Assembly (NCBI GenBank): GCA_964409665.1
Contig: CAYPEE010000001.1
Coordinates: 16,844 to 60,199, forward strand
Direction of reading: 5' to 3'
DNA from: an uncultured Oscillospiraceae bacterium
GTDB lineage: Bacteria > Bacillota > Clostridia > Oscillospirales > Oscillospiraceae
DNA length: 43,356 nt
Shown: piece after piece, positions 5,941 through 37,577 of the stretch
Layout of the letters: each line of letters begins with the position of its first letter
How positions within the stretch are numbered: position 1 is the stretch's first letter
Notes under the pieces: generated by a model
Told to the model about the DNA's origin: nothing
Database searches by the model: none
What the model saw: only the letters and a program-made list of their open reading frames with translations
Made by a program: the position numbers and the translations under genes

Positions 5941-6473
5941 GCTCCGCCCTCCGGCCCGTTCTTTTCCCCCTCCCCGGCGCGGGCGTTCCGGTACGCCTCC
6001 ATCTCCTCGGGGGTGTAGAGTTTATCCACATGCTCCACAAACAGATGCCCGTCCAAATGCTCCAGTTCATGGCAGAGGCACCGGGCCACGATCTCCTCGC
6101 CGGTGGCCTCAAACCAGTTGCCGTCCCGGTCCTGGGCCCGGACGGTGACCACATTGGGGCGGGTGACGAGACCATACTGGCCGGGAACGCTGAGGCAGCC
6201 CTCAAAGTCGGTCTGCTCCCCCTCCCGGGCGATGATCTCCGGATTGACCAGCTCCAGAATGTGCTCGCTGCCCTCGTCCATCACGTCCATGACCACCGCC
6301 ACCCGGCGGAGGATGCCCACCTGGGGGGCGGCAAGGCCCACGCCGTTGGCGGTCAGCAGGGTCTCCCTCATGTCGTCGATGAGGGTGTGGAGCCGCCTGT
6401 CGAACTTCACCACCGGACGGCACTTCTTTTCCAGGGCGGGGTCCCCCCGCGTCAAAATGATCCTCTCCGCCAT
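5937..6473 (-). CDS. def: Peptide deformylase
   Basis: GVGLAAPQVG, EGCLSVP, HELEHLDG. Confidence 0.96.
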   Translation of the reverse strand: MAERIILTRGDPALEKKCRPVVKFDRRLHTLIDDMRETLLTANGVGLAAPQVGILRRVAVVMDVMDEGSEHILELVNPEIIAREGEQTDFEGCLSVPGQYGLVTRPNVVTVRAQDRDGNWFEATGEEIVARCLCHELEHLDGHLFVEHVDKLYTPEEMEAYRNARAGEGEKNGPEGGA

Positions 6474-6491
6474 ATCACAGGTCCCTCCTCG

Positions 6492-8960: not shown

Positions 8961-9030
8961 GCGCTCCACCCCCTGAACAAAAACGGCCAAAGGGCAAGCG
9001 GGTCGTCCCCGCTTGCCCCTCACGGATGAA

Positions 9031-9261
9031 TTACTGCTCGGTATCCTCGGACTGCTGCGCCTGGCGCTCGGCGGACTCGACGGTCAGCGCGCCGCTGGCC
9101 ACCTCGTCGATGGCCAGGGACACCGCCTTTTCCTGGAGGGGTTCCCCCTCCTTCTCCGCCTCGCTGGACAGTTGTCTGGCCCGGTTGGCGACTATATTCA
9201 CCAGCATATAGCGGCTGGGCACTTTGTCGAGCAGATCCCGAATGGCTGGATACAGTAACAT
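9031..9261 (-). CDS. rpoZ: RNA polymerase omega subunit
   Basis: MLLYPAIRDLLDKVPSRYMLVNIVANRARQL; RBS GGGAGG; gmk-rpoZ synteny. Confidence 0.9.
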   Translation of the reverse strand: MLLYPAIRDLLDKVPSRYMLVNIVANRARQLSSEAEKEGEPLQEKAVSLAIDEVASGALTVESAERQAQQSEDTEQ

Positions 9262-9274
9262 AATATTTTCCTCC

Positions 9275-9925
9275 CTATTGATGTGCTGGCCGTCCTCCAC
9301 CGCTTTGGAAATTGGCGATCCCCTCGGCCAGATAGAGCCGCTTGCGGGTCCGGCACCGCTCCGCCTCTAGGATCGACTGGATCTGGCGCGCGGCGGACAC
9401 CACCGTGTCATTCACCACCAGGTAGTCGTACCGTGGGCACTCCCGGCACTCCTCCCGGGCCTTCTCCAGCCGGAGGGCGATGGCCTCCTCCCCGTCGGTA
9501 TTGCGGCTTCGGAGCCGGCGGGAAAGTTCCTCGATGGAGGGCGGGATCAAAAAGATGAGGACCGCGTCGGGGCACTTCTCCTTCACATGGGTTGCCCCCT
9601 GGACCTCGATGTCCAGCAGCACGTCCGTCCCTCTGTCCAGCTGCTCCCGGATGACTTTCAGAGAGGTGCCGTAGCAATTGCCCACATACTCGGCGTACTC
9701 CAGCAGCTCGCCGTCCCGGATCATCCGCTGAAATTCCTCCCGGGAGACAAAGTTGTAATTGACGCCGTTCTGCTCCCCTACCCGCGGGGCCCGCGTGGTG
9801 AAGGACACCGAAAAGTGGATGTCCGGCCGGGCGCTCAGCAGTTCTGCGATCACCGTGCTCTTGCCCACCCCGGAGGGGCCGGACAGCACGATCAGTTCCC
9901 CCCGTCCGTTCTGACGTTCACTCAT
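9275..9925 (-). CDS. gmk: Guanylate kinase
   Basis: GPSGVGKS P-loop, TTRAPR, YGT, DIEVQGA. Confidence 0.95.
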
Positions 9926-10184
9926 TGGACTGTTCCTCCGTACCGTCGCCGCCGGCAAACCGGGCGGAAAGCTGTTCGCAGGTCAGGGATGACCAGATCA
10001 CATGGCCGCTGTCCGTCACGATCACGGCCCGGGTCTTGCGGCCGAAACTGGCGTCGATGAGGGCGCCCCGCTCCCTGGACTCCTGGCCCAGCCGTTTCAC
10101 CGGGGCGGAGTCCGGGCTGATGATGGCCACCACCCGCCGGGGGTTGACCAGGTTCCCGAACCCGATGTTTACCAGTTTCATCAA
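9918..10184 (-). CDS. remA: RemA/DUF370 family protein
   Basis: [11 protein letters not shown]...[10 protein letters not shown]...[15 protein letters not shown]; yicC-remA-gmk synteny. Confidence 0.88.
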
Positions 10185-10196
10185 AAGTCCCCCCGG

Positions 10197-11081
10197 CTAT
10201 TCCAGATTTTGAATCTGTTCCCGGATCTTCTCGATCTCCGCCTTGATGTCCACCACCGTGCGGGTGATGTCCAGATCGGAGCACTTGGAGCCGATGGTGT
10301 TGGCCTCGCGGTTGAACTCCTGGATCAGGAAGTCCAGCTTGCGGCCCACCGCCCCGCCGCCCGCCAGCAGTTCCCGGAGTTGGGAGATATGGCTGCGGAG
10401 GCGGACCGTCTCCTCGTCCACCGCCACTTTATCGGCAAAGATGGCCGCTTCGGTGAGGATGCGGGCGGGGTCGATCTGCGTACTCTGGAGCACCTCGTTC
10501 ATGCGGGCCTCCAGCCTGGCCCGGTACTCGGACACCGTCTGCGGGGAGCGCTCCTCCACCCTGGCCACCATGGCCTCGATGGTACCGGCCCGGCCCAGGA
10601 TGTCATCCGCCAGCCGGGCGCCCTCCTTTTCCCGCATGGCGTTGAAGTCCGCGATGGCCAGATCCAGCGCGGCCAGCAGCCGCTCCCTCATCCGGTCCGG
10701 GTCCTCCTCCTTCTTCTCCACGGTGAGCACGTCCTGGAAACGGGCCAGGTCGGTGACGGAATACCGGCCGCGCATCATGCCGTCGGTCAACCCGTACAGT
10801 TGCTTCAGCGCGCCGATGTAGCTTCCGGCCAGCGCCTCATTCACGGTGACGGCCAGATCGTCCCCACCGGCGCGGGTGATGGTGACGAACACATCCACCT
10901 TGCCCCGGCTGATCCCCGCCTGGACCCTCGTCTTCATGGCGTCCTCGGCAAAGAGGTAGCTGCGGGGCATCTTGACGGTGCAGTCCAGATAGCGGTTGTT
11001 CACCGAGCGCAACTCCACGGTGACGGTCATATCCTCGTAGGTCCGCTCTCCCCGGCCGTAGCCGGTCATACTTCTAACCAT
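10197..11081 (-). CDS. yicC: YicC/YloC family endoribonuclease
   Basis: SMTGYGR, SVNNRYLD, GRKLDFLIQEFNREANTIGSK, EKIREQIQNLE. Confidence 0.93.
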   Translation of the reverse strand: MVRSMTGYGRGERTYEDMTVTVELRSVNNRYLDCTVKMPRSYLFAEDAMKTRVQAGISRGKVDVFVTITRAGGDDLAVTVNEALAGSYIGALKQLYGLTDGMMRGRYSVTDLARFQDVLTVEKKEEDPDRMRERLLAALDLAIADFNAMREKEGARLADDILGRAGTIEAMVARVEERSPQTVSEYRARLEARMNEVLQSTQIDPARILTEAAIFADKVAVDEETVRLRSHISQLRELLAGGGAVGRKLDFLIQEFNREANTIGSKCSDLDITRTVVDIKAEIEKIREQIQNLE

Positions 11082-14417: not shown

Positions 14418-15291
14418 GATCACCGTCTCCCTTGAACCCCTTCAGCACACTGGTAAGTTTGGCGGCGGAATTGGCCAGTTTGCCGCCCTCCTCCTCCGCC
14501 GGCAACAGTTCGGTCCGAAGGATCTCCTCCAGCTCGATACGGTCCAGATCCCGCCGCAGCGTTCCGTTGATCGCCACCGAGACGGAGCCCGTCTCCTCGG
14601 ACACCACGGCCACGACGGCGTCGGAGTTCTCGCTGGCGCCGATGGCGGCCCGGTGGCGCATCCCCAAACTGTGATCCAGATTCACGTTTCCCGACAGGGG
14701 GAGCATACAGCCCGCCCCCACGATCCGCCCCGCCCGGACGATGACCGCCCCGTCGTGCAGTGGGGCCTTATTCCAGAACAGGTTTTTCAGCAGCTGGGCG
14801 GATACCGCCGCGTCCAGCTGGGTGCCGGTCTTGAGCACATCGTCCAGAATGGTCTTGCGCTCGAACACCATCAGGGCGCCCACCTTGTCGGCGGACATAT
14901 CGGCGTAGGCCGACGCCGTCTCGATGATGGCGTTTTCCAAGTCGTTTCCCGCGCTCTCCGATACGAACAGTTCCTTGATACGGCCGCTGCCCACCCGCTC
15001 CAGGAACCGGCGCAGTTCCGGCTGAAACAGGATGATCAGGGCGATGAGGCCCAATTCCACCGTGCGGTTGAGCACATAGCTCACCACCCGCAGCCGCAGC
15101 AGGTTGGCCACCAGCATAGCCGCGATGATGATCACCACCGCCCGGACCACCTGGCCGGAGCGGCTCTTTCGGGCAAAGCGGAACAGATGATAGACGCCGA
15201 AGGCGATGAGCGCCATATCCAGCACGTCAAAGGGGCCGATGAGCCTGAGATATTCCGGGATCTGCCGCAGGAATTGCAGGATGGCGTCCAT
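14398..15291 (-). CDS. cdaA: Diadenylate cyclase CdaA/DacA
   Basis: 3 TM helices, FQPELRRFLE, PLHDGAV, GMRHRAA. Start reassigned to ATG 15291 after RBS GGAAAGGGG. Confidence 0.93.
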   Translation of the reverse strand: MDAILQFLRQIPEYLRLIGPFDVLDMALIAFGVYHLFRFARKSRSGQVVRAVVIIIAAMLVANLLRLRVVSYVLNRTVELGLIALIILFQPELRRFLERVGSGRIKELFVSESAGNDLENAIIETASAYADMSADKVGALMVFERKTILDDVLKTGTQLDAAVSAQLLKNLFWNKAPLHDGAVIVRAGRIVGAGCMLPLSGNVNLDHSLGMRHRAAIGASENSDAVVAVVSEETGSVSVAINGTLRRDLDRIELEEILRTELLPAEEEGGKLANSAAKLTSVLKGFKGDGDHGKEDS

Positions 15292-15366
15292 GGGTCTACC
15301 CCCTTTCCCCGGAAAACCGACTTGATGCCGCCTGTCCGCGGACAGGTTCGCAAAATCATTCAGGGC

Positions 15367-15396
15367 ATTATACCACATTCACACCGGGAATGGCAA
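15367..15396 (-). promoter_or_regulatory. sigma-A promoter of the cdaA operon
   Basis: Minus strand TTGCCA-N18-TATAAT with TG extended -10. Confidence 0.7.
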
Positions 15397-15404
15397 GTAA
15401 AACC

Positions 15405-15422
15405 GCGAAATTTTAAGGCTGA
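15405..15422 (+). repeat. Left 18-bp direct repeat (attL core or long target-site duplication)
   Basis: GCGAAATTTTAAGGCTGA, identical to 37560-37577. Confidence 0.9.
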
Positions 15423-15511
15423 GGCGAGGTTTAATATTAGCTTGTGCAAAGGTCGACGACCTTCGCGCAAGCTGATTTTTTTATATCTGGACGCGGAAAG
15501 AAGGTGAAAAT

Positions 15512-15775
15512 GTGCGAAAACAGGTCAAAAGGCTGGACTTCAGTGACAGAAAGACGGTCGCCGCCTTGTACGAAGGCGGAGCGGGGGCCGCCGAAATTGC
15601 CGAGAAGGTCGGCGTGTCCCGCGCGGCTGTCTATACCGAACTGAAGCGCGGCCAGGACGGCGTCACCCTGGACAAGAACCTTCGGTTCGCCTATGACCCC
15701 GCCCTGGCCCAGAAGCGGGTCCAGGAAGGGCTTCGGAAATGCGGAAAAAGGAAAGGAGTGGATCAGAATGTCTAA
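15512..15775 (+). CDS. HTH protein paralogous to the IS30 transposase N-terminal DNA-binding domain
   Basis: EIAEKVGVSRAAVYTELKRG...YDPALAQ vs transposase EIADEIGVHRNTIYNELKRG...YSPDIAQ. Confidence 0.78.
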   Translation: MRKQVKRLDFSDRKTVAALYEGGAGAAEIAEKVGVSRAAVYTELKRGQDGVTLDKNLRFAYDPALAQKRVQEGLRKCGKRKGVDQNV

Positions 15776-16241
15776 ACCCCTGAAGTTCAGAAATCAGGGC
15801 TACGGGGCCGCGAAGATCGCGCGCCGGAACAACGTCGAATATACCGTTCACTATGACTACTGGAAGGACGGGAAGAAGGCCGACGCCCCCTACTATGTCG
15901 GAATCTGGGACCTGAAGAACCATGACAACGTCGACACCGGCCGGTCCCGGCGGTTCGCTTCCGAACAGGAAGCCTTCGACTTCTGTCAGGACGTATGTGA
16001 CGGCCGCGTCCGGCTGTCCGACCTGAAGAAGGAAGCCCAGGCGATCGCCGACGCCGAAGAAGCCGCGTACAGGAAGCAGATCGACGACCAGGTCGCCGCC
16101 TTCCGGGACGTCCTGGCGGACCAGGGGGTCAGCCTGAAGGGCTTCCTGGTGTGTCTGAAGTCCTGGGACGACCTTCGGAGCGACGCACACGTCGCCCTGT
16201 GTCGGTCCCTGGCCGACGACGGGAAGGAGGGCGCCGAATGA
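15768..16241 (+). CDS. Phage hypothetical protein
   Basis: ATG 15768 after AAGGAG; phage-type codon usage; overlaps neighbours. Confidence 0.7.
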   Translation: MSKPLKFRNQGYGAAKIARRNNVEYTVHYDYWKDGKKADAPYYVGIWDLKNHDNVDTGRSRRFASEQEAFDFCQDVCDGRVRLSDLKKEAQAIADAEEAAYRKQIDDQVAAFRDVLADQGVSLKGFLVCLKSWDDLRSDAHVALCRSLADDGKEGAE

Positions 16242-16426
16242 CCGCGAACACGCGCGACGGCGCGCCCGTCGTCAGGTGTGGCCGCTGTGGCCGGCGCCTG
16301 AAGAATCCCGTCTACATCGAAGCCGGCTTCGGCCGGACGTGCGCCGCGAAGCTGGGGATCGTCATTCCCCAGAAGCGGAAGACCGCGCCGGCGGACCCCG
16401 CCGCGCCGGACGGCGAAGGACGGTGA
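16238..16426 (+). CDS. DUF6011-like small zinc-binding protein
   Basis: CGRCGRRLKNP...GFGRTCA; RBS AAGGAGG; ATGA overlap. Confidence 0.65.
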   Translation: MTANTRDGAPVVRCGRCGRRLKNPVYIEAGFGRTCAAKLGIVIPQKRKTAPADPAAPDGEGR

Positions 16427-16431
16427 CACCC

Positions 16432-16797
16432 ATGAAGTGGTCGATCACCACCCAGGATCGAAACGCCCTGGTCGAATCACATCTGGGGTGTATCTGGTGG
16501 ACTATCAACAAAAACCGCAGCCTGATTGCCGCCGCTGACCTGGACGACGACGACGTCTTCCAACAGTTAGCGGTCCGCATGATCCGCGCGATCCAGAACT
16601 ACGACCCCGACAAGGGGAAGGACCTGGAACAGCACATCTTCGCCCAGCTTCAGTATGAAATCCTGAACTGTAAGGACGCCGCGAAGCGTTACGGCCTGAA
16701 GGGCGCCCCCTATGGAGCGCGGGACCTGGTCGTGTCCCTGGAAGCCCTGGCGGACGCCGGGGTCCAGTTTGCGGGGGGGGGGTACTTAAATGCTTAG
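16432..16797 (+). CDS. Sigma-70 region-2-like phage protein
   Basis: RNALVESHL...DDDDVFQ...IRAIQNYDPDKG resembles sigma region 2; no region 4 visible. Confidence 0.6.
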   Translation: MKWSITTQDRNALVESHLGCIWWTINKNRSLIAAADLDDDDVFQQLAVRMIRAIQNYDPDKGKDLEQHIFAQLQYEILNCKDAAKRYGLKGAPYGARDLVVSLEALADAGVQFAGGGYLNA

Positions 16798-16975
16798 AAA
16801 TAAGACAGCGCGGACCGTGTGCGGCGTGATCGCCTTCGTCATGTTCTTCCTGGCCCTGGGGACCGTCGGAAGCATGGAACAAGACCTGATCCCCTTGGGG
16901 GCCGGCTTCGTCCGAACCCTGGTCTTCGAAGCCCTGTTCGCCCTGTTCGCGAAGCTGGCCGGCGCTATGAACTGA
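16790..16975 (+). CDS. Small two-TM phage membrane protein
   Basis: Two hydrophobic stretches in 61 aa. Confidence 0.6.
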   Translation: MLRNKTARTVCGVIAFVMFFLALGTVGSMEQDLIPLGAGFVRTLVFEALFALFAKLAGAMN

Positions 16976-16989
16976 AAGGAGGGAACCGC

Positions 16990-17151
16990 GTGAAATATCC
17001 GTCGAAGACGCTGACCCCGGTCCAGGTCGGACAGGTCGTGAAGGCCCTGGTCCTTCTGGGCGCCCGGAAGATCACCGTCGAAGAAATAGAGAAGGACCGC
17101 TTCGTCGTCACCACAACAACCGAAGCGGCCCAGTCCAAAAAATCGAACTGA
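16990..17151 (+). CDS. Phage hypothetical protein (53 aa)
   Basis: GTG 16990 after AAGGAGG. Confidence 0.55.
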   Translation: MKYPSKTLTPVQVGQVVKALVLLGARKITVEEIEKDRFVVTTTTEAAQSKKSN

Positions 17152-17183
17152 CTGCATTATAGCAGAGAATGGAAAGGTTTTCA

Positions 17184-17492
17184 ATGTCTAATCTGAAAAA
17201 CTTCAATTTTTACGACACGGACGCCGTGAAGGGCCTGGTCCTGGACGTCCTGGTCGAGAATCACCAACTTCGCGAAGCCCTGGACAGGGCCGAAAAGGGG
17301 TCGACCGACTGGTGGGAGCGGTTCAAGACGGAGCGGGACCGCGCTGACGCCGCCGAAGCGAAGGCGTCCGCCGCGAAGTCCGTCCTGGAACACTTCAAGG
17401 ACACCCGCCGGATCGTCCCGACCGACGACGACACCACCGGCCGGATCGTGGACGACGCGATCGCCCTTCTGACTGGGGGTGAAGCGAAATGA
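17184..17492 (+). CDS. Phage coiled-coil hypothetical protein
   Basis: RBS AAAGG; heptad-like sequence; ATGA overlap with next gene. Confidence 0.6.
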   Translation: MSNLKNFNFYDTDAVKGLVLDVLVENHQLREALDRAEKGSTDWWERFKTERDRADAAEAKASAAKSVLEHFKDTRRIVPTDDDTTGRIVDDAIALLTGGEAK

Positions 17493-17983
17493 CCGCCAGC
17501 CTGTACGAAATCAGCGCCGACTTCCTGAAGGCCCTGGACAGCCTGGAAGTCGACGAAGACACCGGGGAGATCATCAACTTCGACGCCGTGGAAGCCCTGG
17601 GCGCGAAGTTCGACGACAAGGCCGAAAGCGTGGCCTGTTACATAAAGAACTGGGCCGCCTTCGCCGGGAACCTGAAGGCGGAGGAAGAAACCCTGGCGGC
17701 CCGTCGGAAGGCCGCCGAACGCCGGGTCGACAGCATGAAGAAATACCTGTCTTCGTGCATGGAAGCCGTCGGCCGGGACAAGGTCGAAACCGCGAAGGCG
17801 CGGATCAGCTTCAGGAAGTCCGTCCAGGTCCAGATCGTCGACGAAGCCGCCCTTCCGGCGGACTACGTCACGACCACCGTGACCACGAAGCCGGACAAGA
17901 CCGCAATCAAGAAGGCGATCCAGGGCGGCCAGACCGTGGCCGGCGCTTCCCTGGTGGAAAACCGGAACCTTCAGATCAAGTAA
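17489..17983 (+). CDS. Siphovirus Gp157 family protein
   Basis: SLYEI...KAESVACYIKN...ISFRKS...KPDKTAIKKAI...GASLVENRNLQIK. Confidence 0.85.
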   Translation: MTASLYEISADFLKALDSLEVDEDTGEIINFDAVEALGAKFDDKAESVACYIKNWAAFAGNLKAEEETLAARRKAAERRVDSMKKYLSSCMEAVGRDKVETAKARISFRKSVQVQIVDEAALPADYVTTTVTTKPDKTAIKKAIQGGQTVAGASLVENRNLQIK

Positions 17984-17996
17984 AGGGGGCGCGAAC

Positions 17997-18896
17997 ATGG
18001 AAGACAAGAGAATCGACCAGGGGGCGGGACCGTCCGCCCCCGTTGAGCCTATCAGGGGCGCCGAAGGCGTCCCCCAGAAGCCCCAGGACGTCCCCCAGGC
18101 GGCCCCGGTCACGATCCCCCTGTTGACGGCCCAGGACATCGAATGTCGGGTCCAGAGCGTCAGCCGGTCGAAAGGGTCCGGCCGCGTCGGCGCCGTCCTT
18201 CTGTTATACAAGGACGCGCGGGTCGATATGCGAATCCTGGATCAGGTCTTCGGCCCGAACAACTGGCGCCGGACCCATGAAGTGATCAACGGGAATCTGT
18301 TCTGTAATATCGACATATGGGACGCCCAGAAACACGACTGGGTCAGGAAACAGGACGTCGGCGTCGAAAGCAACACCGAAAAGGAAAAGGGTCAGGCGTC
18401 CGACGCCTTCAAACGCGCCGGCTTCAACGTCGGGATCGGCCGGGAACTTTACACGGCCCCCTTCATCTATGTCGAACTGGCCGAAAATGAGTTCTATTCA
18501 GAAGGCCAGCAGAACGGCCGGAAGGAAGTCCTTCGGTGTTACCCGTCCACCCGGTTCACCGTGGCCCAGGTCGAATATAACGACCGGCGGGAAGTGTGCG
18601 ACCTGGTGATCGTCGACCGGACCGGGGCGGTTCGGTTCGACATGAAACGGAAAGTCGAGGGACCGCCCAGGGCGCCCCAGAACGCGGCCCAGGGCGGCGG
18701 AAGGTCCCAGGCCCAGGGAAGGCCCCCGGCGGCCCCCAGGGGCCAGCAGAGCGGCCAGGGAAGGCCGTCTGGCGCGCCCCAGGACAGCGGGGCGAAGTGT
18801 CCGATCTGTGGCGGATCGATCACGAAGGCCGAACAGGACTATTCCCTTCGCCGCTATGGCCGGGAAGCCTGTCGGAACTGTCAAAGGACTTTGTAA
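17997..18896 (+). CDS. Rad52/Rad22-like single-strand annealing protein (Sak) with C-terminal zinc finger
   Basis: YKDARVDMRILD...KQDVGVESNTEKEKGQASDAFKRA...GIGRELY; CPIC...CRNC. Confidence 0.8.
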   Translation: MEDKRIDQGAGPSAPVEPIRGAEGVPQKPQDVPQAAPVTIPLLTAQDIECRVQSVSRSKGSGRVGAVLLLYKDARVDMRILDQVFGPNNWRRTHEVINGNLFCNIDIWDAQKHDWVRKQDVGVESNTEKEKGQASDAFKRAGFNVGIGRELYTAPFIYVELAENEFYSEGQQNGRKEVLRCYPSTRFTVAQVEYNDRREVCDLVIVDRTGAVRFDMKRKVEGPPRAPQNAAQGGGRSQAQGRPPAAPRGQQSGQGRPSGAPQDSGAKCPICGGSITKAEQDYSLRRYGREACRNCQRTL

Positions 18897-18911
18897 AAGG
18901 AGGGGGTCGAA

Positions 18912-19679
18912 GTGCCGAGCAGGATCATAAAAGAATCCATCGTCACCAGCGAATCGCTGACAGAGATCAGCGCGGAAGCGGAACGCTTCTTCTGGCGCCT
19001 GGTCGTCAAGGCCGACGACTACGGCCTTTATTACGGGAACCCGCGAATCCTGGCGTCTATGTGCTTCCCTATGGAGCCGCCGAAGGAACAGAAGGTCGTC
19101 GCGTGGCTGGGCGAACTGGTCGCCGCCGGCATGGTCGGGACCTATACGGCCGCCGAAGACGGGAAGAAATACCTGAAACTTCTGTCCTGGGACAAACACC
19201 AGCAGACGCGCGCGAAGAAAAGCAAATATCCGCTTCCTGTTGCATTTGATAACACTTGCAAACAGACGAATGGAAAGCAAGTGAAATCAAAAGTCCCCGT
19301 AAACGTAAACGAAAACGGGAACGAAAACGAGAAACGAGAAACGGGAACGCGCCCAGACGGGGCGCAAGTGACCCCGCCGGGATTTGATCGCTTCTGGTCA
19401 GTCTATCCCCGCCGGGTCGGGAAACAGGACGCCCTGAAAGCCTGGGGACAGCTTCAGCCGGACGAAGACCTGGTCGGCCAGATCGTGGCCGGGGTCGAAC
19501 GCTGGAAGACAAGTGACACCTGGACGAAGGACGGCGGGAAGTTCATCTGTTACCCCGCGACCTTCCTTCGCGGCCGGCGCTGGGAGGAAGACAACCGGCC
19601 CGACGCCCTGGACGCGACCGCCCCCGGCCGCGCCGCCCGGAACTACGACGGCGACGAAGACTTCCTGGGGGGACGGTGA
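18912..19679 (+). CDS. Phage replication initiator / replisome organiser
   Basis: MPSRIIKESI...ADDYG N-terminus; FDRFWSVYPRRVGK...YPATFL C-terminus; precedes helicase loader. Confidence 0.8.
   Translation: MPSRIIKESIVTSESLTEISAEAERFFWRLVVKADDYGLYYGNPRILASMCFPMEPPKEQKVVAWLGELVAAGMVGTYTAAEDGKKYLKLLSWDKHQQTRAKKSKYPLPVAFDNTCKQTNGKQVKSKVPVNVNENGNENEKRETGTRPDGAQVTPPGFDRFWSVYPRRVGKQDALKAWGQLQPDEDLVGQIVAGVERWKTSDTWTKDGGKFICYPATFLRGRRWEEDNRPDALDATAPGRAARNYDGDEDFLGGR
19301..19349 (+). repeat. A-rich AACG short repeats inside initiator gene (candidate origin)
   Basis: aaacgtaaacgaaaacgggaacgaaaacgagaaacgagaaacgggaacg, 8 AACG units. Confidence 0.4.
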
Positions 19680-19683
19680 TCGC

Positions 19684-20556
19684 GTGGAATCTATCGGCGA
19701 CATCATGGCCGGCATGATCCAGAAAAGCCTTCAGAACGAAGAACCCGGCGACTACTACGGGGAAGACGGCTTCCTTTACTGCGGGAAGTGCCACACCCGG
19801 AAACAGTATGAAATCACCCTTCCGGCCGACGGGGACGGGACGGAACGGAAGGTCCGCGTCGGGATCGCCTGTAAGTGTCAGGCGGCCGTCCTGGAAGCGG
19901 AGGAACGCGAACGCGAACGGAAGGACTTCGAACAGCGCATGGAAGCCCTTCGGCGGGACGGGATCACCGACCCGGCCTATTTGCGATACACCTTCGCCCA
20001 GGACGACCGCCGGAACCCCGACGTCACGGACGTCTGTCTTCGATACGTCCAGAACTGGAAGGAAATGAAGGCGGAAAACATCGGAATCCTGTTCTATGGC
20101 GACGTCGGGACCGGGAAGTCCTTCCTGGCGTGTGCGATTGCGAACGCCCTTCTGGGGCGCCTGGTCAGCGTCAGCGTGACCAACTTCCCCCGGCTTCTGA
20201 ACGCGATCCAGGGGACCTTCGACGAAGAACGCCAGCGGCGGATCGACAGCCTTCAGCGATATTCCCTTCTGGTCATTGACGACCTGGGGGTCGAGCGCGA
20301 CACGGCGTTTTCCGTCGAACAGGTCTACAACGTGATCGACACCAGGGCCAGGTCCGGGAAGCCCGTGATCATCACGACGAATCTGTCCATGAAGGACCTT
20401 CAGAACCCGCCGTCCCTGGCCTATAAGCGAATCTATGACCGGGTCCTGGAAATGTGTCCGATCCGGCTGAAAATGGTCGGAGAATCCCGCCGCGCCGGCA
20501 ACGCGAACGAACGCCGGGAACTGGCGCGGCGGCTTCTGGGCCTGGAAGGGGCGTGA
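19684..20556 (+). CDS. DnaC/IstB-like AAA+ helicase loader
   Basis: CGKC..CKC zinc site, GDVGTGKS Walker A, LLVIDDLG Walker B, ITTN, RIYDRV; start uncertain (19684 or 19705). Confidence 0.88.
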   Translation: MESIGDIMAGMIQKSLQNEEPGDYYGEDGFLYCGKCHTRKQYEITLPADGDGTERKVRVGIACKCQAAVLEAEERERERKDFEQRMEALRRDGITDPAYLRYTFAQDDRRNPDVTDVCLRYVQNWKEMKAENIGILFYGDVGTGKSFLACAIANALLGRLVSVSVTNFPRLLNAIQGTFDEERQRRIDSLQRYSLLVIDDLGVERDTAFSVEQVYNVIDTRARSGKPVIITTNLSMKDLQNPPSLAYKRIYDRVLEMCPIRLKMVGESRRAGNANERRELARRLLGLEGA

Positions 20557-20560
20557 CACC

Positions 20561-20977
20561 GTGAAACAGTACAGACTGACGATCCCCGGCGTCCTTCCCG
20601 GCCTGAATGAGTACATCGACGCGGAGCGCGGCCACAATGGGAAATACAAGGCCGCTTCCATGAAGAAACAGGCCCAGAACGTGATCGGCTTCCTGGTAAA
20701 GACCCAGCTTCTGGGCGTTCACTTCACCCGCCCCGTGATCATTCGCTACTTGTGGATCGAACCGTCCCGCCGGCGCGATAAGGACAATATCGCCTTCGCG
20801 AAGAAGTTCATACAGGACGCCCTGGTCGAAGCCGGGACCCTGAAGAACGACGGCTGGGACGAAATCGCACAATTCACCGACGACTTCGCCGTGGACCGGA
20901 AGAACCCCCGGATCGAAGTCACGATCGAAGAAATCGAAGGAGGAACCCGAAATGGGAAAAGCAACCGTAAAAATTAA
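20561..20977 (+). CDS. RusA-like Holliday junction resolvase
   Basis: RRRDKDNI...KFIQDALV...ND...NPRIEVTIEE. Confidence 0.8.
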   Translation: MKQYRLTIPGVLPGLNEYIDAERGHNGKYKAASMKKQAQNVIGFLVKTQLLGVHFTRPVIIRYLWIEPSRRRDKDNIAFAKKFIQDALVEAGTLKNDGWDEIAQFTDDFAVDRKNPRIEVTIEEIEGGTRNGKSNRKN

Positions 20978-21662
20978 GGACCTGGCCCCCGGCGCGGTCT
21001 TCGACACCGGGATCGAGGGCGTCAAGGCCCAGATCATGGAACACTTCGCGACCGGGGAAACCCTTCTGGTGACGGCGGCGCCGATCGGCTTCCGGCCCTT
21101 CACCGTCCGCCCCTTCACCTTCAGGGAACCCAGCGACGAAAACGCGAAGCCGAACAACTTCGCCTTCGCGTCCCTTCGGAACGACCTGAATAACGACTTC
21201 CTGGACGCCCTGGTCGACGGCGGCGTGATCCCCTATGAGCGAATCAGCGACACCGCCTGGGACCTGTCCGACCACCAGGGCGGCCCCGGCTATGGGTCCG
21301 TCACCTGTAAGGTCGGAATGTTGACCGAACCCCAGGTCAGGAAATACTTCGACGCCGGCCTTCTGAAGATCGAAGACTGGGAATGGACGATCACCCCGAG
21401 CGCCGGCAACGCGAACTACGCGCGGCACGTCAACCCCGACGGGAGCCTGAACCACTACAACGCGTACGTCGGCCACAACGGCGTTCGGCCGGCTTTGGTC
21501 GTGGATTCTGACATCTGTCTATCCCTGGAACCTGACGAAGTCGACCTGTCGGATTCCGTTCTGTTGCGGGAATACAGTTCGAAGCGCCTTGTCGAAGAAG
21601 TCCTTCGCCGGATCGCCGCCGGGGAGGAAGACACGGCCGACGACGACGGGGACGAATGGTAA
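20952..21662 (+). CDS. DGR target protein 2 (DUF6273-like / CLec-type domain), early-region gene
   Basis: NNFAFASLRNDLN...KVGMLT...WEWTITP...GVRPAL; contains VR2. Confidence 0.85.
   Translation: MGKATVKIKDLAPGAVFDTGIEGVKAQIMEHFATGETLLVTAAPIGFRPFTVRPFTFREPSDENAKPNNFAFASLRNDLNNDFLDALVDGGVIPYERISDTAWDLSDHQGGPGYGSVTCKVGMLTEPQVRKYFDAGLLKIEDWEWTITPSAGNANYARHVNPDGSLNHYNAYVGHNGVRPALVVDSDICLSLEPDEVDLSDSVLLREYSSKRLVEEVLRRIAAGEEDTADDDGDEW
21393..21497 (+). repeat. DGR variable region VR2
   Basis: 105-nt ungapped match to TR; 10 mismatches, all at TR adenines. Confidence 0.95.
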
Positions 21663-21898
21663 AGTCCGCCGCCCTGAAGGCCAGGGTCGAAGACAGGATC
21701 GGGGCCGCCCTTCCGGCTGACGTCTTCGACCAGGCCGAACAATACGCGCGCCGGAAGCTGGCCCTGATCAACGCGCGCGCCGGCCGTCAATACGGCGAAG
21801 ACGGCTACGGCGACGAATACCTGGTCATTCTGGCCGTCGAGATCGTCCGGGAAATGGCCCTGACGGCCTACCTGAACGGGAAGGGGGCGGCCGTATGA
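21656..21898 (+). CDS. Phage hypothetical protein
   Basis: Overlapping start/stop with neighbours; phage codon usage. Confidence 0.65.
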   Translation: MVKSAALKARVEDRIGAALPADVFDQAEQYARRKLALINARAGRQYGEDGYGDEYLVILAVEIVREMALTAYLNGKGAAV

Positions 21899-22125
21899 GA
21901 AGGCGGAAGGAACCGCTTCCGAAATGGGTCTACGCCTTTTCCTGTCGGAAGTGTCAGAACATTCAGTTCGTCCACGACGAAGCGAAGGGCCGCGACGGCG
22001 ACTACTGCGTGAAGGCGATCGAGCGCGCCGGCGCCGGCCTTCCCGGCCCGATACACGCCGACGACGACCGCGTGGTCCGCTGTGATTGCTTCAGCCCGAT
22101 CCCGGAAGAAGGCGATCCTGGGTGA
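21895..22125 (+). CDS. Small Cys-rich phage protein
   Basis: CRKC...C...CDC; ATGA/GTGA overlaps. Confidence 0.55.
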   Translation: MRRRKEPLPKWVYAFSCRKCQNIQFVHDEAKGRDGDYCVKAIERAGAGLPGPIHADDDRVVRCDCFSPIPEEGDPG

Positions 22126-22670
22126 TACCATTCCCGGACAAAAAGTATTCCGTGATCTACGCCGACCCGCCCTGGTCCTACACCGCCGGCGGGAAACAAA
22201 GGAACGTCCGCCGGCATTACCACACAATGGCCCCGGAAGACATCTTCGACCTTCCGGTCCAGGACATAGCGGCCGACAACTGTCTTCTGTTCCTATGGGC
22301 CACATTCCCGAACCTGGACGTCGCCCTTGAAACGATCCGGCGCTGGGGCTTCAAGTATAAGACCGCCGCCTTCGTCTGGGTCAAGCGGAACAGGAAGTCC
22401 CCCGGCTTTTTCTGGGGTATGGGAAACTGGACCAGGTCGAACCCGGAAGTCTGCCTTCTGGGAGTGAAGGGAAAGCCGACCCGCGCGTCGGCGTCAGTCC
22501 ATAGCGTGATCGAAGCCCCGATCGGCCGGCATAGCGAGAAGCCGGCGGAAACCCGCGACAGGATCGTCCAGCTTGCGGGGGGGGGTCCTATGATCGAACT
22601 ATTCGCACGAAAGACCGCCCCCGGCTGGGACGCCTGGGGCGACGAAGTCGAAGGGAGTGACACACAATGA
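22122..22670 (+). CDS. MT-A70 family adenine methyltransferase
   Basis: YSVIYADPPW, LFLWAT, WGFKYKT..FVWVK, HSEKP, IELFAR, GWDAWGDE. Confidence 0.9.
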   Translation: MIPFPDKKYSVIYADPPWSYTAGGKQRNVRRHYHTMAPEDIFDLPVQDIAADNCLLFLWATFPNLDVALETIRRWGFKYKTAAFVWVKRNRKSPGFFWGMGNWTRSNPEVCLLGVKGKPTRASASVHSVIEAPIGRHSEKPAETRDRIVQLAGGGPMIELFARKTAPGWDAWGDEVEGSDTQ

Positions 22671-23032
22671 GCGACACCAACACCACCCGCGCCAGGGTGG
22701 AAGCGGCCCTGGCCGAACGGCTGAAGGCCAGGATCGGCCCGAACGCCGGGATTCTGGCGGACGACCTTCTGGACGACCTGATCGCCGCCGGCGGCGTCCT
22801 TCTTCCTGTAAGGCCGAACGGGACCGTCTGGGTGATCCACCGCCGGCGCGCCGTGTCCGCGACCGTCATGTTCGCCGGCGTCGGCGCTGACGGCCTGGCC
22901 GCCTTCAGCGTCCTTCGCGGCCGGCTGGGGACCACCGCCTGGTCGTCCATGAACTTCACGGAACACGACATCGGGAAGGCCGTGTTCCTGACGCGGGAAG
23001 ACGCCGAAGCGGCCCTGAAGGCGGAAGAATGA
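22667..23032 (+). CDS. Phage hypothetical protein
   Basis: C-terminal IGKAVFLTREDAEAAL motif common in Firmicutes phage early proteins. Confidence 0.65.
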   Translation: MSDTNTTRARVEAALAERLKARIGPNAGILADDLLDDLIAAGGVLLPVRPNGTVWVIHRRRAVSATVMFAGVGADGLAAFSVLRGRLGTTAWSSMNFTEHDIGKAVFLTREDAEAALKAEE

Positions 23033-23217
23033 GGGACCGGGGATTCCTTGAATCCGTCCGGCGGAAGCAGACCGACCGGCTGAAGGTCTGTGAAACCTGT
23101 GGAAACCTGGTCCGCCTGGGCGGAACGCTGATCGGCTGTGAAGCCCATGACAAACTGATCCTTCCCGACTATCTCCCATACCACGGGAACATGACCTGTC
23201 CCGACTGGAAGAAATAA
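23029..23217 (+). CDS. Small Cys-containing phage protein
   Basis: CETC...C...CPDW; ATGA overlap. Confidence 0.55.
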   Translation: MRDRGFLESVRRKQTDRLKVCETCGNLVRLGGTLIGCEAHDKLILPDYLPYHGNMTCPDWKK

Positions 23218-23234
23218 CGATAAGGAGGAACCCC

Positions 23235-23612
23235 ATGACTATTTCCGACATCATTCAGCGCGCGCATGACAACGCCGTGAAACATGGCTTCTGGAACCCG
23301 GCCCCGGAGTTCGGGACCGCGATCGCGCTGATTCATTCCGAACTGTCCGAAGCCCTGGAAGAAATGAGGGCCGGGAACAAGATCAGGCCGAAGGACCCGA
23401 CGCCCATGATCTACTTCAGCGGCGGCGGATATGTCGCGACGGACCCGACCCGCGTCTGTACGAAGCCCGAAGGCGTGGCCGTGGAACTGGCCGACGCCGT
23501 GATCCGGATCGCGGACCTGTGCGGACACCTGGGGATCGACCTGGAAGCGGCGATCGCCCTGAAAATGGACTATAACGAAACGCGCCCGTTCAAACACGGG
23601 AAGCGGTTCTGA
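23235..23612 (+). CDS. MazG-like nucleotide pyrophosphohydrolase
   Basis: IALIHSELSEALEE...ELADAVIRIADL...KMDYNETRP.KHGKRF; RBS AAGGAGG. Confidence 0.8.
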   Translation: MTISDIIQRAHDNAVKHGFWNPAPEFGTAIALIHSELSEALEEMRAGNKIRPKDPTPMIYFSGGGYVATDPTRVCTKPEGVAVELADAVIRIADLCGHLGIDLEAAIALKMDYNETRPFKHGKRF

Positions 23613-23617
23613 AGGGG

Positions 23618-24058
23618 GTGGTCCGTATGCTGACGACACGCCAGAACCCGCCGGTCGAAGTCCGGCGCGGCGACGTCTTCTTCTGTCAGGGAAGCCTGGA
23701 CGGCGCCGACTGGAACACCAGGAAGACCCGCCCGGTCGTGGTCATATCGAACGACGCCGGGAACACCACGTCCCCGAAGGTGATCGTCGTGAACATGACG
23801 ACCAACGTCACCCGCCGCCTTTATCCTATGCACTTCGACATAGTGATCACAGGCCGGGGCGTGTCCCGCGTTCACTGTGAGGAAATCAGGACGGTCGAGA
23901 AGGTCGACCTGATCGACCGAATCTATTCCCTGACCCCCGAAGAAGTCCGGCACCTGGATCACTGTCTGGCCTGGTCCCTGGGTATGGCCCCCAGAAGCCC
24001 CCCAGACGCCCCAGGAAGCCCCCAGGGGCGCGGACGCCGGGGACGCCCTGTTCCATAG
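23618..24058 (+). CDS. PemK/MazF-family protein; C-terminus appears frameshifted (alternative frame continues to 24245)
   Basis: VRRGDVFF...KTRPVVVISND.GN...VIVV..TT...CEEIRTVEK. Confidence 0.78.
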   Translation: MVRMLTTRQNPPVEVRRGDVFFCQGSLDGADWNTRKTRPVVVISNDAGNTTSPKVIVVNMTTNVTRRLYPMHFDIVITGRGVSRVHCEEIRTVEKVDLIDRIYSLTPEEVRHLDHCLAWSLGMAPRSPPDAPGSPQGRGRRGRPVP

Positions 24059-24241
24059 ACTGGCCCGGAAGGGCCTGTCAGCGGCCGTCATTCCCCTTCC
24101 GCTACTGAATCAGGTGAACGTCACGATCACCGACGGCGGACAGGTCAACGTGACCCGAAACTTCACCGCCGGGATCATGGAGGGGATCAGACACATCGTC
24201 GACGTTCTGGACGACCGGGACGCCGGCGCGGAGGAAGACCA

Positions 24242-24544
24242 GTGAAGACGTGTTCCGTATGCGGCCGGAAGGTGAACGTGACGGTCGCCTGTCCATACCA
24301 GCGCCGGGGCCTGGAAACCTGTCCCGACTGTTGCGAAAAGTGCTACCAGACGACCCCCTTCCCCTGTCGGGAACACGACCAGCGGAAGGCGGCGGAGCCG
24401 AAGACCTGGGACGCCGCCGCCGCGAAGCTGGCCGGCGCCCTGGACCTTCCCGAAGACCAGGCGATCCCCTGTCTGATCGCATACGCTTGCACACGCTATG
24501 TATGGCAAGGGAAGCGACTATACAAAGATTTACAACGCGAATAA
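24242..24544 (+). CDS. Cys-rich phage protein, probably truncated/chimeric at the deletion junction
   Basis: CSVC..CPDCCEKC; last ~14 aa are an out-of-frame read of the LysM remnant. Confidence 0.5.
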   Translation: MKTCSVCGRKVNVTVACPYQRRGLETCPDCCEKCYQTTPFPCREHDQRKAAEPKTWDAAAAKLAGALDLPEDQAIPCLIAYACTRYVWQGKRLYKDLQRE

Positions 24545-29469: not shown

Positions 29470-29486
29470 ATAGGGTATGATCTGTT

Positions 29487-29591: not shown

Positions 29592-29753
29592 GAGGAAACC
29601 GCGACCGAGTAAGGCGACGAACCTGAAAGCAGAAGACCCCCTACAAAGGAGATCATATCCTTCCCGACGTCGGAAAGACCAGGGTAAACACATGATCGCC
29701 GACGAAAGGGCTTCGGCTACGACGCCCGAACTATAAGCGGCGAGGAGGTACAC

Positions 29754-35693: not shown

Positions 35694-35756
35694 GAAAAAA
35701 GCCCCCTTTTCCCCGGCTTCTGGGCCGGGATTTTTGAATTATGGTTCATGCCAATA

Positions 35757-35786
35757 ATATTAACCGCCGATTCATGGTAATGTCAA
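35757..35786 (-). promoter_or_regulatory. sigma-A promoter for the minus-strand membrane gene
   Basis: Minus strand TTGACA-N18-TAATAT. Confidence 0.55.
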
Positions 35787-35824
35787 GTAAAATATTGCAC
35801 ATACTAATAACAAGGGGGACCGGC

Positions 35825-36076
35825 GTGAAAAGTCTGGGGTATAATGGGCGGCGGAATATATGCGGGGAGCGGGTCAGAATGGCCCGTCTGGCGAAGCGTA
35901 TGTCCCAGGAAGCCCTGGCGGCAAAATTGCAGACGCGGGGCGTGAATATCGCCCAGGACGCGATCAGCAACATCGAATCAGGCGCGCGTCTGGTGACAGA
36001 CTATGAACTTCGCGGCTTCGCGGTCGTCCTTCAGGTCCCGATCGAATCCCTTCTGGACCCCGAAGACGAAGACTGA
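35825..36076 (+). CDS. XRE-family HTH regulator
   Basis: NICGERVRMARLAKRMSQEALAAKLQ...ISNIESGARLVTDYEL; GTG after AAGGGGG. Confidence 0.85.
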   Translation: MKSLGYNGRRNICGERVRMARLAKRMSQEALAAKLQTRGVNIAQDAISNIESGARLVTDYELRGFAVVLQVPIESLLDPEDED

Positions 36077-36106
36077 CCCACGGGAAAAACCCGTGGGTCT
36101 TTTTTT
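36075..36106 (+). terminator. Intrinsic terminator
   Basis: gacccacggg-aaaaa-cccgtgggtc followed by T7. Confidence 0.85.
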
Positions 36107-36116
36107 ATTTTCCCCC

Positions 36117-36145
36117 TTGACATTACGCCCTAAAAGGCGTAATAT
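36117..36145 (+). promoter_or_regulatory. sigma-A promoter with overlapping palindromic operator
   Basis: TTGACA-N17-TAATAT; ATTACGCC-N6-GGCGTAAT at 36122-36143. Confidence 0.8.
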
Positions 36146-36178
36146 AAAGACACCACCACAAAGGAAAGGGCGATCCGA

Positions 36179-36391
36179 ATGAAATCTGGAAGCACGAAAA
36201 ACACGACGAAGGTCGCGCGCTTGCGCTGTAAACGGGGCCTGACGCAAGCCGCATTTGCCGACGGCGTCGGCGTGAACATTCGAACGGTCCAGAAGCTGGA
36301 AAGCGGGGAACAGGACATCATGTCCGTGTCCCTTGGCCTGGGTCTTCGGATCGCCGACTTCCTGGGCGTCCCGCCGCGCGAACTGGTCTGA
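36179..36391 (+). CDS. XRE/Cro-family HTH regulator
   Basis: LRCKRGLTQAAFADGVGVNIRTVQKLESGE...IADFLGV. Confidence 0.82.
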   Translation: MKSGSTKNTTKVARLRCKRGLTQAAFADGVGVNIRTVQKLESGEQDIMSVSLGLGLRIADFLGVPPRELV

Positions 36392-36465: not shown

Positions 36466-37521
36466 ATGAAGAAGCGCAGATTTAGACATCTGACCTGGAA
36501 CGACCGTCTTCGGATCGAAACCGGCCTGAAGCATGGCCTGAAGGTCCAGGAAATCGCCGACGAAATCGGCGTCCACCGGAACACGATATACAACGAACTG
36601 AAGCGGGGCCGTTATATCCACCGGAACAGCGACTGGACCGAAGAAGAACGATACAGTCCCGACATAGCCCAGGCCGCCTATGAAGAACACCTGGCCGCGA
36701 AGGGTCCCGGCCTGAAGATCGGGAAGGACCACCGTCTGGCGGAACACATCGAACGCCGGATCGTCGAAGGCGGCTATTCCCCGGCCGCCGTCCTGGGGGA
36801 AATCAAGGTCAAGGGCCTTCAGTTCGACACGTCGATTTGTGAAGCGACCCTGTATTCCTACATAAAGAAGGGGATATTCCTGAACCTGGAAAGTTCGAAC
36901 CTTCCCAGGGGCGGCCGGAAGAAGCGCGGCTATAAGCGCGTCAGGAAGACGGCCGCCAGGGCCGCCGCCGGCGACAGCATTGAAAACCGGCCGGCCGAAG
37001 TCCTGGATCGCGCCGTCGTCGGGAACTGGGAAATGGACTGTGTCGTCGGGAAGAAGAAGACGAAGGACGCCCTTCTGGTCCTGTCGGAGCGGAAGGCCCG
37101 GAAGGAAATAATCATCAAGATCAAGGACAAGACCGCCGACAGCGTGGTCGCCGCCCTGGACCGGCTGGAACGCCGCTTCGGCGCGGTCTTCTATACCATG
37201 TTCCAGACGATCACCGTCGACAACGGGTCGGAGTTTTCCGACCCCGAAGGAATGGAACGGTCCTGTCGCCGGAAGGGGCGCCGGACGAAGATATACTACT
37301 GTCACCCGTATTCTTCCTTCGAACGCGGGACGAATGAGAATATAAACGGCATGATCCGCCGCTGGCTTCCGAAGGGGACCGACTTCGGCGCGATCCCGGC
37401 GAAGGCGATCCAGGCCGTCGAAGACTGGCTGAACAACTACCCGCGCGAAATCCTGGGCTTCCGAACGGCCGACGAAGTCTTCGCCGAAGGTCTGGCGGCC
37501 CTGTCCTGTCCAGGACTATAA
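36466..37521 (+). CDS. IS30-family DDE transposase (candidate prophage integrase)
   Basis: HTH (EIADEIGVHRNTIYNELKRG), SIENRP, GNWEMDCV, TITVDNGSEF, HPYSSFERGTNENINGMIRR.LPKG, NNYPR.ILGF. Confidence 0.93.
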   Translation: MKKRRFRHLTWNDRLRIETGLKHGLKVQEIADEIGVHRNTIYNELKRGRYIHRNSDWTEEERYSPDIAQAAYEEHLAAKGPGLKIGKDHRLAEHIERRIVEGGYSPAAVLGEIKVKGLQFDTSICEATLYSYIKKGIFLNLESSNLPRGGRKKRGYKRVRKTAARAAAGDSIENRPAEVLDRAVVGNWEMDCVVGKKKTKDALLVLSERKARKEIIIKIKDKTADSVVAALDRLERRFGAVFYTMFQTITVDNGSEFSDPEGMERSCRRKGRRTKIYYCHPYSSFERGTNENINGMIRRWLPKGTDFGAIPAKAIQAVEDWLNNYPREILGFRTADEVFAEGLAALSCPGL

Positions 37522-37559
37522 AAAAATTTCTGAAACTTTACAATTTAATCTTGACTTTT

Positions 37560-37577
37560 GCGAAATTTTAAGGCTGA
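37560..37577 (+). repeat. Right 18-bp direct repeat (attR core or long target-site duplication)
   Basis: GCGAAATTTTAAGGCTGA, identical to 15405-15422. Confidence 0.9.

What the first reader, a model, noticed from the sequence alone, without database searches (positions are those of the whole stretch)
15512..15775. Stand-alone copy of the transposase HTH domain at the opposite prophage end: candidate directionality factor
Seen: the first phage gene (87 aa) aligns by eye to the transposase N-terminus: L.FSDR vs LTWNDR, EIAEKVGVSRAAVYTELKRG vs EIADEIGVHRNTIYNELKRG, YDPALAQ vs YSPDIAQ. It has no DDE domain and heads the lytic operon. After circularisation it would lie directly downstream of the transposase across the junction. 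Inference: an excisionase-like or Cro-like protein derived from the transposase that binds the element ends and controls integration versus excision.
Basis: partly seen in the sequence, partly recalled or inferred. Interest (0 to 1): 0.7.

Follow-up and report, generated by a model that had tools for sequence, protein, structure and literature searches.

The report
Domesticated transposase head in IScream prophage
A gut prophage bounded by an IS30 transposase at one end carries at its other end a conserved small gene for a copy of that enzyme's DNA-binding head, behind a predicted promoter whose two halves meet only when the phage ends are joined, so the protein likely acts after circularisation to damp that promoter and block re-insertion, rather than being the decayed remnant described in print.

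Summary
Observation confirmed. The 87-aa first gene is an IS30-type HTH (HTH_38, 30% identical to the transposase N-terminus) with no DDE domain. The element is an IScream prophage (15423-37562, 15-bp target duplication, about 15.6 kb deleted). Wirbel et al. 2025 call such genes 'deprecated' IS30 remnants. Here they form a family of 80-116 aa under purifying selection, no closer to their own transposase than to others. In 40 of 41 joined-end relatives the right end gives a -35 and the left end a -10 at 17-18 bp, pointing at this gene; none of 51 integrated flanks supplies such a -35. A terminator-like hairpin overlaps the predicted start site. The gene is therefore likely silent before circle formation, which argues against an excisionase. 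Best reading (0.5): an OrfA/Ner-like protein that binds the joined ends, damps their promoter and blocks re-integration. Binding and function are untested. Insertions also sit 24-27 bp upstream of host promoters (28 of 51). This scan noted a similar arrangement before on another genome (e1-7844309).

The parts
15512..15775 (+). Stand-alone IS30-type HTH gene, 87 aa
15423..37562 (.). IScream-type prophage, end to end (deletion derivative)
15408..15422 (.). Left copy of the 15-bp target duplication (exact repeat runs 18 nt from 15405 because the right end finishes in the same three bases)
37563..37577 (.). Right copy of the target duplication
15432..15437 (+). -10 hexamer (TAATAT) of the predicted junction promoter, in the left end
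37551..37556 (+). -35 hexamer (TTGACT) of the predicted junction promoter, in the right end
15435..15448 (+). Inner inverted-repeat box of the left end, overlapping the -10 and predicted start site; candidate binding site
15464..15477 (-). Weaker inverted copy of the box in the 3' arm of the hairpin; candidate second half-site
37537..37550 (-). Inner inverted-repeat box of the right end
15436..15482 (+). Bulged hairpin plus T-run, terminator-like, starting upstream of the predicted +1
   Evidence: not called by the perfect-stem scan
36466..37521 (+). Full-length IS30-family transposase, 351 aa, directed outwards
35741..36391 (+). Two XRE-type HTH genes upstream of the transposase, with a promoter-like site at 36117-36145; likely repressor module
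15367..15396 (-). Host sigma70-type promoter-like site upstream of the diadenylate cyclase gene; its -35 lies 26 bp from the phage left end and faces away
15768..24544 (+). Early genes downstream of the HTH gene (Gp157-like, IstB-like ATPase, RusA-like, MT-A70 methylase)
24495..24499 (.). Breakpoint where about 15.6 kb present in relative G950 is missing

Best explanation
The gene is a conserved stand-alone copy of the IS30 transposase DNA-binding head that is likely switched on only after the phage ends are joined, and its protein likely binds the joined ends to damp their promoter and keep the transposase from re-inserting the circle. Shown by sequence: joined ends abut across a variable spacer of about 2 bp and place a -35 and a -10 hexamer 17 bp apart, facing this gene; integration separates them and leaves a 14-16 bp duplication. 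Inferred: in the prophage the left end has only the -10, and the full hairpin plus T-run would stop read-through, so the early operon is off without needing a repressor there. In the circle, transcription would start inside the hairpin and escape it. Inferred: the protein then occupies the inner end boxes that overlap the -10 and start site, giving negative feedback (Ner/Cro-like) and competing with the transposase (OrfA-like), which biases the circle towards the lytic path. Likely origin: the left IS copy of an ancestral composite transposon, cut to its HTH and kept by selection.
For: Family: 84 of 84 candidates at 55-98% identity; 116 of 119 related loci carry a short ORF, 80-116 aa in the 115 with a called start, none with DDE in frame. 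Selection: 703 of 716 pairs have dN/dS below 1; pooled pN/pS 0.44 over 40 non-overlapping pairs, against 0.42 for transposase N-termini. Identity to cognate and non-cognate transposase heads is the same, 0.317 and 0.315 (15 representatives). Junction promoter: 40 of 41 joined-end loci; 12 of 13 duplication-defined prophages rebuild it with a -10 match of at least 4 of 6; 0 of 51 integrated flanks reach 5 of 6 at the -35 position. An unguided scan finds it in L001 and no forward site in the window. Transposase-first survey: all 30 accepted junctions among 80 loci have the gene downstream. Recognition helix matches the cognate transposase above permutation, 61 against 52.0, p 0.002; helices 1 and 2 do not (16 pairs). 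Hairpin: median -20.4 kcal/mol whole, -9.2 from the assumed +1 (28 representatives); compensatory changes at 4 of 13 pairs. Precedent: IS30 Pjunc (PMC9333248); IS2 OrfA represses, and a 17-kDa IS30 head binds the inner ends (PMC3299598).
Against: No binding, expression or start site is shown; the RNA runs held only contigs. In this window's own pair the recognition helix shares just 3 of 8 residues with the transposase, and the conserved His is replaced in 10 of 16 family members, so specificity may have moved. The permutation test ignores kinship. The -35 was picked by pattern, so only searches test it without that bias. The hairpin was not called by the perfect-stem terminator scan, its z-scores use single-base shuffles, and +1 was assumed. 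IS911 OrfA, the same kind of protein, stimulates circle insertion instead (PMC3299598). Many loci are near-copies of a few phages. This copy of the prophage lacks about 15.6 kb.
Confidence: 0.5

Rival explanations
1. Early transcription regulator whose specificity has drifted: made from the junction promoter but acting at other phage or host promoters, for example the XRE/transposase control region, not at the ends.
For: Recognition-helix His and Arg/Asn are replaced in this subgroup; the family sits on a long branch apart from all transposase heads; it opens the early operon like Cro or Ner.
Against: The recognition helix alone tracks the cognate transposase. The one box-like site in the control region (35796-35809) is not kept in relatives.
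Confidence: 0.2
2. Integration helper, like IS911 OrfA: made early after infection, it joins the transposase on the junction and promotes insertion, favouring lysogeny.
For: Same timing and same candidate sites as the best explanation; IS911 OrfA stimulates minicircle insertion (PMC3299598, passages).
Against: Single-gene IS30-family elements without this gene already make 12-22 bp duplications (13 of 14 copies), and one of them lands 35-37 bp from promoter-like sites (3 of 3), so targeting does not need it.
Confidence: 0.15
3. Excisionase-like factor needed to bring the two prophage ends together and form the circle.
For: Small basic DNA-binding protein at the element end; ends 31-52 kb apart may need an accessory factor; always present beside junctions.
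Against: No forward promoter-like site in the 89 bp before the gene in the integrated state; no integrated flank restores the -35 (0 of 51); the hairpin would block read-through; IS30 circles arise by copy-out with the transposase and host repair (PMC9333248).
Confidence: 0.12
4. Decayed second IS30 copy of a composite transposon, with no function (the reading in Wirbel et al. 2025).
For: No catalytic domain; it sits where simple IS relatives have their transposase gene; one copy (L101) looks degraded, and two distant members are only 64-66 aa.
Against: Narrow length range, purifying selection equal to the transposase head, no in-frame DDE in 116 loci, and no member sister to its own transposase.
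Confidence: 0.03

Closest known systems
IScream phages (Wirbel, Hickey et al., Nature 2025, PMC12823448)
   Same: Prophage with a full outward IS30 transposase at one end and a short IS30-like ORF without catalytic domain at the other; gut Clostridia hosts.
   Different: The paper calls the short ORF 'deprecated' and decaying. Its main text has no occurrence of HTH, excisionase, directionality, promoter, target site or inverted repeat. Here the ORF is a selected gene family behind a junction promoter.
Faecalibacterium phages Lagaffe (PMC5883640) and FP01 (PMC13432834)
   Same: Lagaffe: IS30 transposase as integrase, flanking direct repeats, a DGR. FP01: two XRE genes, IS30 transposase (orf43), then an 84-aa HTH gene (orf46).
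   Different: In the passages read, the Lagaffe direct repeats are called surprising and are not explained; FP01 orf46 is listed only as a transcriptional regulator. Their sequences were not compared here.
IS30 junction promoter Pjunc and copy-out-paste-in transposition (PMC9333248)
   Same: Ends joined across a 2-bp spacer; promoter formed by joining.
   Different: IS30 Pjunc drives the transposase and insertions duplicate 2 bp. Here it faces the stand-alone HTH and early operon, duplications are 14-16 bp, and a hairpin follows the -10.
OrfA of IS2 and IS911 (PMC3299598); InsA of IS1 (recalled)
   Same: Transposase DNA-binding head made as a separate protein that regulates promoter or insertion step.
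   Different: OrfA is the identical N-terminus of the same gene, made without frameshifting. This is a separate gene, 30% identical, 21 kb away.
Mu Ner and lambda Cro (recalled)
   Same: Small HTH protein first in the early operon.
   Different: Different family (HTH_38); its promoter would exist only in the circle.
TnGBS and ISLre2 promoter-targeted elements (PMC3942029)
   Same: DDE transposase inserting at a fixed distance upstream of sigmaA promoters.
   Different: Mutator-like enzymes, 15-17 bp, fixed orientation; here IS30 family, 24-27 bp including the duplication, both orientations.

Membership tests
IScream phage | IS30-like genes at both prophage ends | tested here: met
   HTH_38 at both ends, inside the duplication
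IScream phage | Outward copy full length with catalytic domain | tested here: met
   351 aa; rve hit E 2.6e-6, under cut-off; D191, D252 and E286 invariant in 22 sequences (their role as the triad is recalled)
IScream phage | Inward copy lacks the catalytic domain | tested here: met
IScream phage | No tyrosine or serine integrase | tested here: met
   None among the 38 prophage ORFs scanned; the missing 15.6 kb was not scanned
IScream phage | Full structural gene set and virions | tested here: not met
   No terminase, portal, capsid, sheath or tape-measure family; about 15.6 kb missing against G950. This copy is a defective member.
IScream phage | Transposase falls in the published phage clade | not tested
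   The paper's reference sequences were not fetched
Recombination directionality factor (Xis/Cox type) | Expressed from the prophage before excision | tested here: inconclusive
   Sequence argues against it; no expression data
Recombination directionality factor (Xis/Cox type) | Excisionase sequence family or fold | tested here: inconclusive
   Only HTH_38 passes its cut-off among the 5 of 10 families shown; no PDB fold match at E 0.001
Recombination directionality factor (Xis/Cox type) | Binds attachment sites, stimulates excision, inhibits integration | not testable with these tools
   Needs EMSA and recombination assays
OrfA/InsA-type regulator | Same gene and sequence as the transposase N-terminus | tested here: not met
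   Separate gene, 30% identical
OrfA/InsA-type regulator | Binds element ends and regulates promoter or insertion | tested here: inconclusive
   Recognition helix tracks cognate transposase, p 0.002; no binding data
Decayed IS half of a composite transposon | Neutral evolution, scattered lengths, DDE remnant, closest to partner copy | tested here: not met

The most novel reading that the evidence does not exclude
IScream phages run a lysis-lysogeny switch built from IS30 parts: joining the ends creates the only early promoter, integration destroys it, a hairpin that only junction-born transcripts escape insulates the prophage, and a domesticated transposase head guards the junction as the commitment factor, while the transposase parks the phage just upstream of host promoters.
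Probability: 0.35. Interest if true: 0.85.

Novelty: new variant of a known kind. Interest (0 to 1): 0.65.

Why it matters
IScream phages are a common gut phage group (1,780 candidates in MGV per PMC12823448) whose control of integration is undescribed. If true, the gene dismissed as a decayed IS is the regulator, and the element's own DNA topology switches early genes on and off. It also explains the direct repeats that puzzled the Lagaffe authors as long target duplications. Cultured models exist (Blautia hansenii ATCC 27552, Lagaffe, FP01), so every step can be tested. Promoter-targeted insertion by an IS30 enzyme would also help explain the wide lysogenic host range.

Tried and rejected
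Homodimer prediction on residues 1-82 gave no verdict (score 0.00). AlphaFold model (pLDDT 72, three-helix HTH, hairpin, long C-terminal helix) found no PDB match at E 0.001; best were DtxR/MntR repressors at E 0.02. RNA runs X17 and X18 are contigs and cannot show start site or level. A 59-nt contig in X1 spans the junction with two other letters but is under the tool's 31-letter rule, so it is not counted. A box-like site at 35796-35809 is not conserved. Longer homologues: 5 hits among 7995 candidates; the 4 read look like mis-called starts or read-through chimeras, not transposases. Annotated phage collection gave 2 uninformative hits. Treating the 18-nt repeat as an integrase att core was rejected: joined ends lack it, repeats differ at every site, and three relatives have the site empty. 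Rows left out: L074 (right end followed by host DNA); 14 of 41 loci (motif not matched or gene broken); L021, L051, L059 from the integrated set (truncated junctions) plus flanks under 110 nt and near-duplicates; L101, G757's HTH, L194 and L220 from the tree; G150 (likely hybrid); 5 of 18 intact pairs had no repeat of 12 nt or more near the transposase stop. Look-up of earlier findings by sequence gave nothing.

Full report
Observation. The ORF at 15512-15775 encodes 87 aa, aligns with the first 76 residues of the transposase at 36466-37521 (23 of 77 identical, E 1e-9) and passes the Pfam HTH_38 cut-off. The prophage runs from 15423 to 37562. An 18-nt repeat flanks it. Contig L001, a near-identical phage, shows the ends joined across two other bases, with the transposase stop 132 nt before this gene. 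In runs X1 and X10, from two studies, contigs leave the phage exactly at those two end positions. Three genomes of the same genus have the site empty (the 3 best of 7 relative loci). The window's copy lacks about 15.6 kb present in G950, and no head, sheath or tape-measure family was found among 38 prophage ORFs, so it is defective or mis-assembled.

What is known. This is the IScream layout. In PMC12823448 (sections 9 and 10 read whole, plus passages) the inward IS30 ORF is called 'deprecated' and likened to a decaying half of a composite transposon. The preprint says the same (passages). One supplementary PDF held 844 characters and no hit; MOESM4 was too large to read and 16 other files were not searched, so a discussion there cannot be excluded. 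Lagaffe has an IS30 integrase and unexplained direct repeats (PMC5883640, passages). FP01 has an 84-aa HTH gene three genes after its IS30 transposase (PMC13432834, passages). Eight full-text searches returned no paper assigning the gene a function or describing a junction promoter or promoter targeting in these phages; most subscription papers are not in that library.

Not a decayed remnant. 84 of 84 candidates are 55-98% identical (lengths limited to 47-153 aa). Of 119 loci (80 kept of 100 viral, 39 genomic), 116 carry a short ORF, 80-116 aa in the 115 with a called start, and none continues into DDE; the other 3 are long proteins. Among 100 distinct genes, 703 of 716 pairs with dS 0.05-1 have dN/dS below 1. 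In 21 of 22 non-overlapping pairs with dS under 0.25 it is 0.41 or less; the exception involves L101. Pooled pN/pS is 0.44, against 0.42 for transposase N-termini. Many of these pairs are strains of one phage group. Identity to the cognate transposase head (0.317) equals identity to others (0.315), while family members share 0.48. In a 69-row, 85-column tree, a 100/98 branch separates 21 phage and 10 other transposase heads from all 37 family members, with one long-branch IS30 (L122) falling among the latter. The root is unknown, so descent from the phage transposase rather than another IS30 is not shown.

A promoter made by joining. In 41 loci the transposase lies directly upstream. In 40 of them TTGAC(T/A) in the right end sits 17 bp (39) or 18 bp (1) from a -10 hexamer with 4-5 of 6 matches; that -35 was picked by pattern. 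Unbiased checks agree. In 13 of 18 prophages with both ends on one contig, a 14-18 nt repeat defines the ends, a TTGA hexamer lies just inside the right end in all 13, and the rebuilt -10 matches at least 4 of 6 in 12. In 51 distinct integrated flanks the would-be -35 never reaches 5 of 6. A plain scan finds the site in L001 and no forward site in window 15250-15800. Starting from the transposase instead (best 80 of 567 loci), 28 junction calls plus 2 with a spacer one base off all have the gene downstream; 3 of these are contigs seen before. Two further calls without the gene lacked the hairpin and were judged host flank by eye; 4 loci had a gene hit without a junction; 44 had neither, 30 of them with under 800 nt downstream. 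IS30 itself joins ends across 2 bp and forms Pjunc (PMC9333248, introduction part 1 and passages).

The hairpin. All 28 representative junctions have a hairpin and T-run after the -10. The stem starts a median 8 nt before the assumed +1; from +1 the fold weakens from -20.4 to -9.2 kcal/mol and ends 6 nt short of the T-run. In 14 close relatives 4 of 13 pairs show compensatory changes and G-U pairs are common, which fits an RNA structure. The perfect-stem scan did not call it. The 5' arm is the inner end box and the 3' arm a weaker inverted copy, so it may double as an operator.

Control. Two single-gene IS30-family elements in the same phylum give 12-22 bp duplications in 13 of 14 copies, carry TTGCAA and TAAAAT in their ends (16 bp apart with a 2-bp spacer), have the transposase as first gene, and show no hairpin (z 0.0 and 0.4). 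So long duplications and the split promoter are inherited; the hairpin and the separate HTH gene belong to the phage. The gene stands where the ancestor's transposase gene stood.

Does it bind the ends? Over 16 pairs at 70% identity or less, the recognition helix matches the cognate transposase more than shuffled partners (61 against 52.0, p 0.002); helices 1 and 2 do not (p 0.51, 0.88). Against this, the test ignores kinship, and this window's pair shares 3 of 8 residues.

Mechanism. Shown: gene, selection, ends, duplication, junction geometry, co-occurrence. Inferred: promoter activity, termination, timing, binding, direction. If the gene is off until the ends join, it cannot start circle formation, which leaves action on the circle. 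The boxes overlap the -10 and start site, so binding would repress; a head without catalytic domain would compete with the transposase. IS2 OrfA represses and the truncated IS30 head binds the inner ends, but IS911 OrfA helps insertion (PMC3299598, passages), so direction stays open. Odds: guard and autorepressor 0.5, regulator elsewhere 0.2, insertion helper 0.15, excisionase 0.12, remnant 0.03.

Target choice. 28 of 51 integrated left flanks have a strong outward-facing promoter-like site 24-27 bp from the end, against 0-2 in 13 other 4-nt windows; in 13 of 13 intact prophages a -10 of at least 5 of 6 lies at 24-31 bp on one side, 9 left and 4 right. This resembles TnGBS targeting (PMC3942029, passages).

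Finding e1-7844309, on another genome, reached a similar reading. I saw it; it gave the Lagaffe lead and is not counted as support.

Verdict. Real; a new variant of a known kind; interest 0.65.

Noticed in passing
window 15367-15422 and 51 related flanks: These prophages insert 24-27 bp upstream of the -35 of host sigma70-type promoters, facing away, in either orientation, with 14-16 bp duplications. Not found in print for IS30-family enzymes in the searches run.
   Followed up: yes
window 28873-31567 and 21379-21498: Diversity-generating retroelement: Avd-like gene, template repeat 29473-29592, reverse transcriptase, and two variable repeats, one in a tail-region gene and one in an early gene, both DUF6273.
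   Followed up: no
window 24495-24499: About 15.6 kb present in relative G950 is missing here; real deletion or mis-assembly not resolved.
   Followed up: partly
G000:C27 about 6080-10590 (L197, L204): Second, roughly 4.5-kb element in the same genome with both ends, a 16-nt repeat, HTH gene, a few early genes and a transposase.
   Followed up: partly
G044:C4 46571-135500 (L138, L179, L180; also L094, L095): Two head-to-tail prophage copies with a junction between them and one duplication around the pair; tandem dimer as in IS30 dimers, or assembly artefact.
   Followed up: partly
G150:C10 9195-18900 (L159, L169) and L014: Short hybrid remnant with left end and HTH of one phage group and transposase of another, at the same host site as L014.
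   Followed up: no
L208, L219, L224 (G907); L218-L236 (G868): Single-gene IS30-family elements with 12-22 bp duplications; G907's three copies each lie 35-37 bp from a promoter-like site.
   Followed up: partly
window 37515-37543 (-): Promoter-like site in the right end pointing back into the transposase gene; possible antisense control.
   Followed up: no
L089, L090, L101 (G001): One genome holds three left ends at different sites but no transposase match at E 1e-30 with this query; one HTH copy runs on to 113 aa.
   Followed up: no
window 22086-22670 and 23618-24058: MT-A70 methyltransferase and PemK/MazF-like genes in the early operon.
   Followed up: no
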